From a virus (Duplodnaviria; Heunggongvirae; Uroviricota; Caudoviricetes), in the IMG/VR virus record IMGVR_UViG_2703719354_000009, positions 1 through 45,557 of that record: DNA of 45,557 bases. One strand, given 5' to 3'. Shown piece after piece: positions 44,060 through 45,278 of the stretch. Position 1 is the first letter of the stretch, and every line of letters begins with the position of its first letter. The position numbers were made by a program, and so were the translations under genes. The notes under the pieces were generated by a model. The model ran no database searches and had not been told where the DNA came from. It saw nothing but the letters and a program-made list of their open reading frames with translations.

Positions 44060-44233
44060 ATGATGAATATTATCCGAGGCTTACTGGCTTTACACCTTTC
44101 TTCGGCCCGACCATATCCATGTCTTTTTCCTTCTGACCAACTTTGGCAAGTTTGTTGCCGTCGATGGAAGCCCAGAAGTCGAGAGAGCGTCTTGCACTAG
44201 CCATAGCTTTATCAGAAGTGATTTTTTTATGTT
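44060..44233 (-). CDS. Small hypothetical protein (57 aa), basic
   Basis: Below the ORF-track cutoff; ATG preceded by AAGAGG 7 nt upstream; MIKQHKKITSDKAMASARRSLDFWASIDGNKLAKVGQKEKDMDMVGPKKGVKPVSLG. Confidence 0.45.
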
Positions 44234-44333
44234 GTTTGATCATGGTTAACCTCTTTGGCTATAGACTTTACGGATAATTTTATAACAAATGCGTTCATTA
44301 AACAAACAGCCCATCGACTGCTGATTGAGATTG

Positions 44334-44906
44334 TCATTCTTCAACTGGGTCAATGCCATTCACTTTCCGTCGTATGGTGTCGAGGATGTCGTGCACATCT
44401 GCAGACATCTTACTGTGGTCATGCCATACTTGGGCAAATCCGTAGCTCCTGTAACGCGGTTGTGCATCTTCAGTAGGATCTTGAATATAAACGTCGTCAA
44501 GCTCCGCGATCTGGCAGAAGGTAGTCGCGTAAATAAGTGCGATGATCAACACATTGCCTGTTAGGTCGGTATCCTCATCTGAAATGAAGTTTTCTAACAT
44601 GCAAATTGAGAATTGCTCACGGCGCCAGTCGTATTTACAAATGATAACCGCATGAAGCTGTTCGGGCTCATCACGGTCGATCAGCTTTAACGTTATATCC
44701 AGTATTCCATCTACAGCGTCACCGCGATAGGTCTGCATCGCCCATCGCCAGTCCAAGTGGCTTTGTAAACTTGCATCTTCAAGCTGGCGTCTCTCTTCAT
44801 CGCTCAAAACGCCTACAGAGATATTAGTCCATCCAAGTGATTCAATAGCTTTTTGTGTTGTTGCTAGACATTGATCATGTATTTGCTGAGTAGATAGGAA
44901 GCTCAC
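44334..44906 (-). CDS. Hypothetical 190-aa acidic protein (cargo gene near attR)
   Basis: Clean ORF co-directional with the downstream 57-aa gene; no recognisable motif. Confidence 0.5.
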   Translation of the reverse strand: MSFLSTQQIHDQCLATTQKAIESLGWTNISVGVLSDEERRQLEDASLQSHLDWRWAMQTYRGDAVDGILDITLKLIDRDEPEQLHAVIICKYDWRREQFSICMLENFISDEDTDLTGNVLIIALIYATTFCQIAELDDVYIQDPTEDAQPRYRSYGFAQVWHDHSKMSADVHDILDTIRRKVNGIDPVEE

Positions 44907-45159
44907 TTCATGTCATCCTTTATCTTTTGTCCCACAGCAATTATATCGTTCAAGTGTGAAAGTAGGCGAGTTATTCTGACCTACGCCCCTCGCTATACGT
45001 GGTTTTAGAGGGCTGACATGACTGTTCCCAGCTGATTGCCACACGGCATTGTTCGCAAGATTTATGTCGACTCAATTATGAACGTCTGCTGATCGCTCAT
45101 AACAGGCATTCACTACATTTATCTTCATTGGCTATGCAAGTCGTAATACAAGTTGGGAC

Positions 45160-45278
45160 AAAACTGAGACACATAAGGCCTCACAATGGCTTGCAAGGCT
45201 TTACATGTTTTGATGTGATGGGACGTGTGAGCGCAGTGTTGATGGGGTAATGCTTTGAATTAGAAACGGATTCTTATA
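45160..45278. repeat. Diverged direct repeat copy B, abutting the attR core
   Basis: See copy A; this copy is the phage arm immediately left of the attR core. Confidence 0.45.

What the first reader, a model, noticed from the sequence alone, without database searches (positions are those of the whole stretch)
44060..45278. Cargo gene pair (190-aa plus 57-aa proteins) next to attR, bracketed by diverged ~100-bp direct repeats
A minus-strand pair (44906 to 44334, then 44233 to 44060) lies between the acyltransferase and attR. Non-coding segments at about 43694-43775 and 45160-45278 align at roughly 75-80% identity by eye, including a shared TTGCAAGGCTTT block. Copy B is the phage arm directly abutting the attR core. 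The pattern suggests a cassette inserted or exchanged by recombination at the att-proximal arm, or duplicated regulatory or arm-type sites. Neither protein has a function I can assign; the small basic protein has a strong ribosome-binding site but falls below typical ORF cutoffs.
Basis: seen in the sequence. Interest (0 to 1): 0.6.

Follow-up and report, generated by a model that had tools for sequence, protein, structure and literature searches.

The report
Captured GNAT-like gene pair beside prophage attR
A rare two-gene cargo (an orphan acetyltransferase-fold protein plus a tiny basic partner), apparently picked up from a Klebsiella-like chromosome, sits in the usual accessory-gene slot next to the right end of an SfV-like E. 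coli prophage; the "bracketing repeats" are two copies of a common terminator-like block of phage attachment regions, not the insertion joints.

Summary
Both genes are real: 190 aa at 44906..44334 and 57 aa at 44243..44070, both on the minus strand. The repeat is real but short, 49 nt at 76% identity, about 60 nt at most.

Copy B lies in the SfV/P22-type attP arm. Copy A is a relic of the same roughly 55-bp hairpin block. That block also occurs in phages with unrelated integrases, and directly downstream of int genes. It is best read as an int-distal (lambda tI/sib-like) terminator, not an arm-type site.

The cargo is a 1251-bp segment (43862-45112), 96.9% identical to a Klebsiella chromosomal locus. 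Its two joints lie in REP-like palindromes that the phage slot and the Klebsiella locus share, not in the repeats. The same flanks hold a different gene in a lambdoid phage. Only 2 of 5426 complete E. coli genomes carry the pair.

The 190-aa protein has a confident GNAT fold but matches no Pfam, NCBIfam or PADLOC model. Its family is tiny. Even 25-28%-identical relatives at phage moron sites are followed by a 54-61-aa ORF, basic in four of five. Function is untested. I favour an acetyltransferase with a small substrate or inhibitor partner, acting in phage-host conflict.

The parts
42270..43319 (-). Acyltransferase (Acyl_transf_3), the neighbouring O-antigen-modification-type cargo. GC is 29.8%. 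RefSeq starts it at 43289.
   Evidence: Pfam PF01757, E 2e-30. Annotation in KSC1031. GC content. Promoter-like site 43360..43332.
43479..43690 (+). C-terminal remnant of a umuD/humD-like S24 peptidase gene (pseudogene), frameshifted by a 14-bp tandem duplication at 43592-43619.
   Evidence: RefSeq pseudogene call. tblastn gives 57-66% identity to the UmuD-like genes of phages HK639, P1/P7 and phiKO2. Duplication (D9).
43688..43750 (.). Copy A: a relic copy of the conserved roughly 55-bp hairpin block of lambdoid att regions (stem 43706-43717 / 43728-43739). It is a module breakpoint in related prophages.
   Evidence: Homology to LHM10-1 ends at 43741; to 300709 and GN25 at 43750. RNA fold z -3.3 on the plus strand and -5.0 on the minus strand.
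43758..43881 (.). Left flank of the cargo slot: non-coding DNA shared with the lambda b region and phage-21-type lambdoid phages.
   Evidence: 80-84% identity to lambda 24212-24348 and to Lambda_4B5.
43858..43881 (.). Left joint: a degenerate REP-like palindrome (GACTGCTATGTGCCAAGAGCGGAA). It is shared by the phage flank and the Klebsiella locus.
   Evidence: Six related copies lie in the 16.5 kb of Klebsiella locus L004. The exact 23-mer occurs in 13 stretches from 12 genomes of 11 Enterobacterales genera.
43862..45112 (-). A 1251-bp segment, 96.9% identical to a Klebsiella chromosomal locus. It is a self-contained unit: promoter, 190-aa gene, 57-aa gene and hairpin.
   Evidence: blastn against L004 9045-7795. 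100.0% and 99.9% identical in E. coli E41 and KSC1031 only.
44022..44048 (.). Perfect 13-bp-stem hairpin downstream of the 57-aa gene. It has an A-run on one side and a T-run on the other, like a bidirectional terminator. It is conserved in the Klebsiella and Serratia loci, and the Yersinia homology starts within it.
   Evidence: I7..
44070..44243 (-). 57-aa basic protein (pI 10.1) with two predicted helices and a Lys-rich tail. The invariant pattern is FW..DG.KLA...V...EK.MD..GP.K.
44305..44322 (-). Terminator-like hairpin between the two genes.
44334..44906 (-). 190-aa acidic (pI 4.5) GNAT-fold protein of an orphan family.
44940..44945 (-). Perfect -10 hexamer TATAAT, 33 nt before the GTG start. 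It is conserved in the Klebsiella and E. kobei plasmid loci. Each phage relative (mEp460, L030) has its own TATAAT.
   Evidence: and the sequence.
45084..45107 (.). Right joint: a second REP-like palindrome (GTCTGCTGATCGCTCATAACAGGC). It is shared by the window, Klebsiella, phage D2 and Lambda_4B5.
45113..45153 (.). Right flank of the cargo slot, shared with phage-21-type lambdoid phages.
   Evidence: 88.6-93.5% identity.
45154..45215 (.). Copy B: the same hairpin block, here part of the functional SfV/P22-type attP arm now at attR.
   Evidence: Annotated as a terminator in phage L and SfII. Terminator-like hits on the minus strand.
45245..45342 (+). tRNA-like fragment and att core. Positions 45279-45342 repeat the thrW 3' end and flank found at attL (8212-8275).
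   Evidence: Phage L annotation of the tRNA-like fragment and attP.

Best explanation
The region between the acyltransferase and attR of this SfV-like thrW prophage is the usual att-proximal accessory-gene slot. It has been rebuilt several times.

(1) The two 'repeats' are two copies of a conserved roughly 55-bp hairpin block. In P22/SfV-type phages this block lies across the att core from int. In other phages it lies directly after int. It most likely acts as a transcription terminator like lambda tI/sib, insulating int and att from the cargo. Copy B is the working copy in the current attP arm. Copy A was left behind with the acyltransferase/umuD' module when that module was joined to a new att region.

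(2) The gene pair is a self-contained moron with its own -10 box, two genes and a hairpin. It arrived as a 1.25-kb piece of Klebsiella-type DNA, by recombination within two short REP-like palindromes present both at the edges of the phage slot and around the chromosomal pair.

(3) The 190-aa product is a divergent GNAT-fold acyl-CoA N-acyltransferase. The 57-aa basic protein is its dedicated partner, most likely through its Lys-containing flexible tail, as substrate or pseudo-substrate inhibitor. The pair probably serves phage-host or element-host conflict, for example toxin/antitoxin-like growth arrest, exclusion or counter-defence.

Shown: parts 1 and 2 except the terminator activity and the direction of transfer. 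Inferred: part 3 beyond the fold and the conserved pairing. My confidence is about 0.8 for the anatomy and capture history (parts 1 and 2), about 0.6 for the terminator role, and about 0.3 for the conflict function. The overall figure is a blend of these.
For: Prophage identity:
- thrW lies at 8182-8257.
- The integrase is 98% identical to SfV Int.
- The att duplication is 8212-8275 and 45279-45342.

The repeat block:
- It aligns in 11 contexts: P22/L, SfV, SfIV, DLP12, two phage-21-type phages, GN25, 300709, LHM10-1 and copies A and B.
- 77.5% of cells pair, against 23-52% for slid controls. Two pairs have changes on both sides, for example C-G in 5 sequences and U-A in 5.
- RNA folds have z-scores of -3.3 to -5.0 for copy A, copy B (minus strand) and phage L.
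- Depositors annotated it as a terminator in phage L and SfII.
- It begins 11 bp after the intS stop in GN25 and lies next to an int 3' fragment in 300709.
- It accompanies Int types with no meaningful similarity to one another.
- Homology of the acyltransferase module to three other prophages ends at 43741-43750, the end of copy A.

The cargo:
- 43862-45112 is 96.9% identical to Klebsiella L004.
- Three-way alignments place both joints in the palindromes.
- The same flanks enclose a different, 256-aa gene in Lambda_4B5.
- The pair is in 2 of 5426 E. coli genomes.
- Its -10 box and hairpin are conserved.

The proteins:
- GNAT fold.
- Invariant Y152 and F157, nearly invariant G156, in an A148-x3-Y152-x3-G156-F157 pattern, and E105/N106 at the end of strand 4 (the match to GNAT motif B is my reading).
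- The pair is kept as a unit in 7 of 7 full contexts examined, with a spacer of 83 to 95 nt: E. coli, Klebsiella, Pantoea, Yersinia, Serratia, Kluyvera and an E. kobei plasmid.
- Relatives at 25-28% identity or found only by the family profile sit between int and xis, after tail fibres, between Q and holin, and beside CBASS. Four of five are followed by a 54-61-aa ORF.
- The CBASS-adjacent small ORF is homologous to the 57-aa protein, 42% identity, E 1e-8.
Against: - No experiment bears on function.
- Motif A (Q/R-x-x-G-x-G/A) is not canonical. Only L115 and G117 are invariant, in a 12-residue acidic loop, so acetyl-CoA use is not assured.
- No profile library recognises the protein as a GNAT.
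- No PADLOC hit.
- In Klebsiella, Pantoea, Serratia and Kluyvera the pair sits among ordinary chromosomal genes. That fits a housekeeping or stress role as well as a conflict role.
- Homology between the two subfamilies of small partners is not demonstrable.
- The terminator reading rests on few independent lineages. Copy B on the plus strand folds no better than shuffles (z -1.5). Copy A has lost the plus-strand T-run.
- The direction of transfer (Klebsiella to phage) is inferred from rarity in E. coli, not shown.
Confidence: 0.6

Rival explanations
1. One reading: the two diverged direct repeats are the recombination substrates that inserted or exchanged the cassette lying between them.
For: The repeats are significantly similar and lie on either side of the pair. 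The end of copy A is a module breakpoint in other prophages.
Against: The Klebsiella-derived segment starts about 110 bp after copy A and ends 42 bp before copy B. Both joints sit in other, REP-like, elements. The DNA between the repeats is a mosaic of at least three origins. It also includes a slot flank that holds a different cargo in Lambda_4B5.
Confidence: 0.08
2. Copy A and copy B are duplicated protein-binding sites of the attachment site (Int arm-type, Xis or IHF sites). Copy A would be a working secondary arm or regulatory site.
For: Copy B lies inside the arm of a P22/SfV-type attP. The invariant core TTGCAAGGCTTT contains CAAnnnnTTR, which resembles an IHF half-consensus (my reading).
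Against: The block accompanies integrases with no meaningful similarity: SfV-type, phage-21-type and IntS. It also occurs in a prophage beside ybhB-bioA. No core or tRNA-like fragment follows copy A. A generic IHF site is not excluded and is compatible with the terminator reading.
Confidence: 0.12
3. The pair is a type II toxin-antitoxin system of the GNAT kind (like TacAT, AtaRT or KacAT). The 190-aa protein would acetylate aminoacyl-tRNA and the 57-aa protein would neutralise it.
Against: - The gene order is reversed and the genes are 83-95 nt apart, with a hairpin between them.
- The small protein shows no Pfam hit and only two predicted helices, so an RHH/DUF1778 DNA-binding domain is unlikely.
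- No Pfam GNAT model matches.
- Non-toxin GNATs score as well or better.
- The large protein is acidic and the small one basic, the opposite of the usual charge pattern (my general knowledge).
- The pair holds stable chromosomal positions in several genera.
Confidence: 0.2
4. The pair is an ordinary enterobacterial stress or housekeeping module: a protein acetyltransferase with its small substrate or regulator. It was carried into the prophage by chance, with no role in the phage's biology.
For: It has chromosomal, non-mobile contexts in Klebsiella, Pantoea, Serratia and Kluyvera. In Pantoea it sits next to Mn-catalase, DUF892, KGG and YmgB family (stress-type) genes, and in Kluyvera next to pspF. 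DNA-damage genes recur nearby: umuC in Pantoea, SRAP and umuDC on the E. kobei plasmid.
Against: Distant relatives are mostly at classic phage moron sites or beside CBASS. The pair has a different location in every genus examined, and also occurs on plasmids and on a possible conjugative or plasmid element (large LPD-domain protein and ParA-like gene nearby). No LexA box lies upstream.
Confidence: 0.25
5. The direction of transfer was the reverse: the pair is phage cargo that was left in the Klebsiella chromosome.
For: Relatives occur in lambdoid phages. REP-like elements also occur in the lambda b region.
Against: The Klebsiella locus shows no phage genes within 8 kb on either side. Its palindromes belong to a repeat family scattered through that chromosome. 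The protein cluster is found on 221 contigs, named from Klebsiella, against 2 of 5426 E. coli genomes.
Confidence: 0.15

Closest known systems
Phage morons / att-proximal lysogenic-conversion slot (gtrABC of SfV, SfII, SfIV and P22; the lambda b region)
   Same: The position is the same, between the tail-fibre genes and the attP arm. The pair has its own promoter and terminator. It varies among otherwise related prophages.
   Different: The content is not an O-antigen modification operon. It is an uncharacterised GNAT-fold protein with a small partner. The joints are REP-like palindromes shared with a bacterial chromosome.
GNAT-fold toxin-antitoxin pairs (TacT/TacA, AtaT/AtaR, KacT/KacA)
   Same: The large protein has a GNAT fold of about 175-190 aa, with structural matches to TacT3, TacT2, AtaT and toxin 7byy. 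It is a two-gene unit found on mobile elements.
   Different: The small gene is downstream and shows no Pfam hit or sign of an RHH/DUF1778 domain. No sequence-profile membership. A 90-nt spacer with a hairpin separates the genes. Toxicity is untested.
Lambda tI/sib retroregulatory terminator
   Same: It is a hairpin placed beyond the att core relative to int, so integration separates it from int. U- and A-tracts flank the stem. The lambda layout is from established knowledge.
   Different: There is no sequence similarity to lambda sib. RNase III processing and termination are untested. In Sf6-like GN25 it follows intS directly, without an intervening core.
REP/BIME-type repetitive extragenic palindromes
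   Same: These are short imperfect palindromes, intergenic and present in several copies per 16 kb of Klebsiella chromosome, sometimes in adjacent pairs.
   Different: The sequence differs from the classical E. coli REP consensus (my recollection). Copies also lie inside phage accessory regions. Their use as cassette joints is inferred from two junctions only.
N-terminal and protein acetyltransferases (NatD/Naa40, RimI/RimJ-type) and small-molecule GNATs (PA3270, BH2621)

Membership tests
GNAT (GCN5-related N-acetyltransferase) superfamily | Mixed alpha/beta fold with the beta1-alpha1-alpha2-beta2-4-alpha3-beta5-alpha4-beta6-7 topology | tested here: met
GNAT (GCN5-related N-acetyltransferase) superfamily | Motif A pyrophosphate-binding loop Q/R-x-x-G-x-G/A after strand 4 | tested here: inconclusive
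   The family has a 12-residue acidic loop with only L115 and G117 invariant (D-L-T-G-N-V). This is not the canonical pattern.
GNAT (GCN5-related N-acetyltransferase) superfamily | Motif B, A-x3-Y-x3-G-F on helix 4, with the tyrosine used as general acid in many members | tested here: met
   Y152 and F157 are invariant. G156 and Y155 are nearly invariant. A148 is present in the window protein but not conserved across the family. The assignment of the motif is by inspection.
GNAT (GCN5-related N-acetyltransferase) superfamily | Recognition by curated sequence profiles (Pfam acetyltransferase families, NCBIfam) | tested here: not met
   No hit for the protein, for the 30 aligned family members or for 10 distant relatives. 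No PDB sequence hit with the family profile.
GNAT (GCN5-related N-acetyltransferase) superfamily | Binds acyl-CoA and transfers the acyl group | not testable with these tools
   Needs biochemistry.
Type II GNAT-RHH toxin-antitoxin systems (TacAT, AtaRT, KacAT) | Antitoxin gene upstream of the toxin, with an RHH/DUF1778 DNA-binding domain | tested here: not met
   The small gene is downstream. It has no Pfam hit, and the model shows two helices plus a disordered tail.
Type II GNAT-RHH toxin-antitoxin systems (TacAT, AtaRT, KacAT) | Toxin arrests growth and is neutralised by the partner | not testable with these tools
   Needs expression experiments.
Known anti-phage defence systems (PADLOC-DB 2.0) | Match to a model of a described defence protein | tested here: not met
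   No hit at E <= 1 for either protein.
Phage moron | Autonomous unit (promoter, gene(s), terminator) between conserved phage modules, present in some relatives and absent in others | tested here: met
   Perfect -10 at 44945..44940 and hairpin at 44022-44048. Present in 2 of 5426 E. coli genomes. SfV, SfIV and L carry gtrABC instead. Promoter and terminator activity are not measured.
Lambda tI/sib-like int-distal terminator | Hairpin with flanking U-tract located downstream of int beyond the att core | tested here: inconclusive
   Position met in phage L, SfV and SfIV. Hairpin supported. The pattern scan found minus-strand terminator-like sites in copy B only. Termination and RNase III cleavage are untested.
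attP arm-type integrase-binding sites | Sequence specific to one integrase family and required for recombination | tested here: not met
   The same block is present with SfV-type Int, phage-21-type Int and IntS, which show no meaningful similarity. Binding itself is not testable here.
REP-type repetitive extragenic palindromes | Imperfect palindrome, intergenic, many copies per genome | tested here: met
   Six copies with up to 4 mismatches lie in 16.5 kb of Klebsiella L004, seven in L007. The exact 23-mer is found in 11 genera and is not linked to the pair. The genome-wide copy number was not counted.

The most novel reading that the evidence does not exclude
The GNAT-fold protein and its roughly 55-60-aa basic partner form a previously undescribed family of two-gene conflict modules (toxin/antitoxin-like, abortive-infection, exclusion or counter-defence). 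They would be carried at moron sites of lambdoid and SfV-like phages, on plasmids and beside CBASS. The enzyme would acetylate a cellular or phage target, and the small protein's invariant G-P-x-K tail would act as its switch. Short REP-like palindromes would serve as portable joints that let such cassettes move between chromosomes and phage accessory slots.
Probability: 0.3. Interest if true: 0.65.

Novelty: new variant of a known kind. Interest (0 to 1): 0.45.

Why it matters
If the pair proves to be an active module, it adds an unrecognised GNAT-based two-gene system to the set of cargo that temperate phages carry. No current profile library detects it, so annotation pipelines miss it. The junction analysis also gives a concrete, datable case of a prophage picking up chromosomal genes from another genus (97% identity). 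The pickup went through short repetitive palindromes rather than att-site errors or insertion sequences. That is relevant to how morons are acquired. The reading of the repeats also matters for annotation: a roughly 55-bp block shared by the att regions of many enterobacterial prophages is a module boundary or terminator, and it should not be mistaken for evidence of duplication or of a second att site.

Tried and rejected
- Profile libraries gave nothing informative: Pfam, NCBIfam and PADLOC on both proteins; Pfam on 30 family members and 10 distant relatives. PHROG 4350 matches but has no known function.
- A PDB sequence search with the family profile found nothing.
- Rfam at E <= 1 across 43300-45557 gave only three sub-threshold matches.
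- LexA boxes (CTG-N10-CAG) upstream of the 190-aa gene in 11 loci: none. I therefore dropped the SOS-regulation idea raised by the neighbouring umuD', umuC and SRAP genes. Pantoea has no umuD next to the pair.
- I looked for a small convergent RNA between 43883 and 44020 (promoter-like site at 43867-43895, T-run after the hairpin). That stretch is not conserved outside Klebsiella, so I did not pursue it.
- Homology of the mEp460 and L030 small ORFs to the 57-aa family is not significant by BLASTP or hhalign.
- I tested whether the exact palindrome is part of the cassette. It is not: 13 loci with the exact 23-mer lack the pair.
- Literature searches by accession and by topic found no description. 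A search on P22 att terminators gave nothing directly usable.
- The AFDB50 fold library was unavailable.
- A model of the two proteins together could not be made with the tools.
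Full report
**Setting**

The window holds tRNA-Thr(CGT) at 8182-8257. An integrase gene follows at 9435..8272 (-), 98% identical to SfV Int. Positions 8212-8275 recur at 45279-45342. The prophage therefore runs from thrW (attL) to about 45278/45325 (attR). Positions 45154-45342 are 94.7-97.4% identical to the attP regions of SfV and SfIV, and 83% identical to that of P22-like phage L. In those phages gtrA starts about 76 bp from this arm. The finding thus lies in the place where relatives carry their serotype-conversion operon.

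**Checking the observation**

Both ORFs exist: 190 aa at 44906..44334 and 57 aa at 44243..44070. Both are conserved proteins, with 68 and 31 clusters across Enterobacterales.

The repeat is real:
- 43688-43736 against 45154-45202, 76% over 49 nt.
- Alignment score 38, against 16.0 +/- 2.3 (maximum 31) in 1000 shuffles.
- It is the best match to copy B anywhere in the window.

It does not extend to about 100 bp. Beyond about 43750/45216 the sequences are unrelated.

**What the repeats are**

The block aligns with the attP arms of P22/L, SfV, SfIV and DLP12, and with two phage-21-type lambdoid phages. It also aligns with sequences in three other E. coli prophages:
- In GN25 it begins 11 bp after the stop codon of intS in an Sf6-like prophage.
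- In 300709 it is followed by a 3' fragment of an integrase gene.
- In LHM10-1 it lies near the end of a prophage beside ybhB-bioA.

The integrases concerned show no meaningful similarity to one another. The block is therefore not an integrase-specific arm site.

It folds into a hairpin. 77.5% of cells pair, against 23-52% when the partner is slid. Two pairs have changes on both sides. Fold z-scores reach -5.0. A- and T-tracts flank the stem. Depositors marked it as a terminator in phage L and SfII.

In P22/SfV-type phages it lies downstream of int on the far side of the core. That is the arrangement of lambda tI/sib (established knowledge of lambda). I infer a terminator or insulator role; this is not shown.

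Homology of the acyltransferase module to LHM10-1, 300709 and GN25 stops at 43741-43750. Copy A therefore marks an old module joint. Just upstream lies a umuD-like pseudogene remnant at 43479-43690, another dead cargo gene.

**What the cargo is and how it got there**

Positions 43862-45112 are 96.9% identical to a Klebsiella chromosomal locus with no phage genes nearby.

Three-way alignments show where the homologies change over:
- On the left, phage-type homology (lambda b region, Lambda_4B5) and Klebsiella homology overlap only in a 24-bp palindrome at 43858-43881.
- On the right they overlap in a second palindrome at 45084-45107.

These palindromes are repeated in the Klebsiella locus. The exact 23-mer occurs in 11 genera, unlinked to the pair.

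In Lambda_4B5 the same two flanks enclose a different 256-aa gene next to icd' and int. The pair was therefore exchanged into a pre-existing slot by recombination in short shared palindromes.

Only E. coli KSC1031 and E41, both porcine isolates, carry it among 5426 complete genomes. In E41 it sits on a different phage backbone.

**The proteins**

No profile library recognises it. Its family has only 29 representative clusters among 1.84 billion proteins. A motif-B-like A-x3-Y-x3-G-F is conserved in its Y, G and F positions; motif A is atypical.

The 57-aa protein is basic and more conserved than its partner: 79% mean column identity in A5 and 86% in A7, against 61% for the 190-aa family. It is predicted as two helices plus a flexible Lys-rich tail with invariant G-P-x-K.

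The two genes stay together, 83 to 95 nt apart, in every full context examined:
- Klebsiella, Pantoea, Serratia and Kluyvera chromosomes.
- A Yersinia locus that may be a conjugative or plasmid element (a large LPD-domain protein and a ParA-like gene nearby).
- An E. kobei plasmid.

Distant relatives sit between int and xis of mEp460, after the tail fibre genes, between Q and holin, and beside a CBASS operon. Four of five are followed by a 54-61-aa ORF. One of those small ORFs is demonstrably homologous to the 57-aa protein. A perfect -10 box precedes the large gene in the close homologues (Klebsiella, E. kobei plasmid), and each phage relative (mEp460, L030) has its own TATAAT.

**Mechanism, with its status**

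- Shown: the fold, the conserved pairing, the mobility, and the autonomy of the unit at the sequence level.
- Inferred: that the enzyme is active, that the small protein is its substrate or inhibitor, and that the pair acts in conflict between elements and hosts.
- I put about 0.3 on a conflict role, 0.2 specifically on a TA-like mechanism, and 0.25 on an ordinary stress or housekeeping role.

**Comparison with known systems**

The region behaves as a moron slot. The repeats resemble lambda tI/sib in placement only. The pair resembles GNAT toxin-antitoxin modules in fold and size, but it fails their defining features of gene order and antitoxin domain. I do not file it as a member.

**Verdict**

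This is an ordinary kind of place with an unusually clear acquisition history and an uncharacterised, profile-invisible two-gene family. Interest is moderate.

Noticed in passing
window 43592-43619: An exact 14-bp tandem duplication (TTCTGCACTGGCTA x2) sits inside the umuD-like remnant. Removing one copy restores a longer S24-type reading frame.
   Followed up: partly
window 42270-43319: The Acyl_transf_3 acyltransferase gene has 29.8% GC, against 50.6% for the prophage. With the umuD' remnant and copy A it forms a module shared at 94-100% identity by seven E. coli genomes, in prophages with at least two different tail and baseplate gene sets and at different chromosomal positions (thrW, beside ybhB-bioA, near pinE).
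   Followed up: partly
L019 (E. coli E41) 9127-10501: In E41 the same right-end module and thrW fragment are followed directly by another tyrosine integrase and further prophage-type genes. This suggests elements in tandem at thrW.
   Followed up: no
L010 (Pantoea) 6276-7547; L048 (E. kobei plasmid) 449-5860; window 43479-43690: DNA-damage genes (umuC; umuDC plus an SOS-response-associated peptidase; a umuD-like remnant) lie near the pair in three unrelated contexts. No LexA box was found upstream of the pair.
   Followed up: partly
L004-L006 and L008 (Klebsiella) 1-1601, against L007 and L009: About 6 kb from the pair, some Klebsiella strains carry a SIR2_2-domain gene plus a ParA/AAA_31-like gene. 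Others carry LysE and DUF6896 genes there instead. This looks like a variable spot, possibly a defence hotspot.
   Followed up: no
L028 (Lambda_4B5) 2834-3604: A 256-aa hypothetical protein occupies the same palindrome-flanked slot next to icd' and int in phage-21-type lambdoid phages, which also carry sitABCD there. Its function was not examined.
   Followed up: no
window 45242-45261 and 45328-45347: A 20-nt inverted repeat (85% complementary) brackets the thrW-derived core at attR. One arm is in the phage tRNA-like fragment and the other in the bacterial flank.
   Followed up: no
window 45478-45557: An ORF starts here whose product begins MTKNTRFSPEVRQRAVRMVLESQGEYD. It resembles an IS3-family (IS911-like) orfA by my recollection. 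KSC1031 instead has a LysR fragment and paoD at this place.
   Followed up: no
L049 (E. coli MSHS 472) 3501-3559: Forty-five E. coli genomes share only a 59-bp piece (window 43867-43925, 91.5% identity). In the one locus examined it lies in a chromosomal AraC/TauE region that resembles the Klebsiella neighbourhood of the pair. This would be a likely empty-site counterpart.
   Followed up: partly
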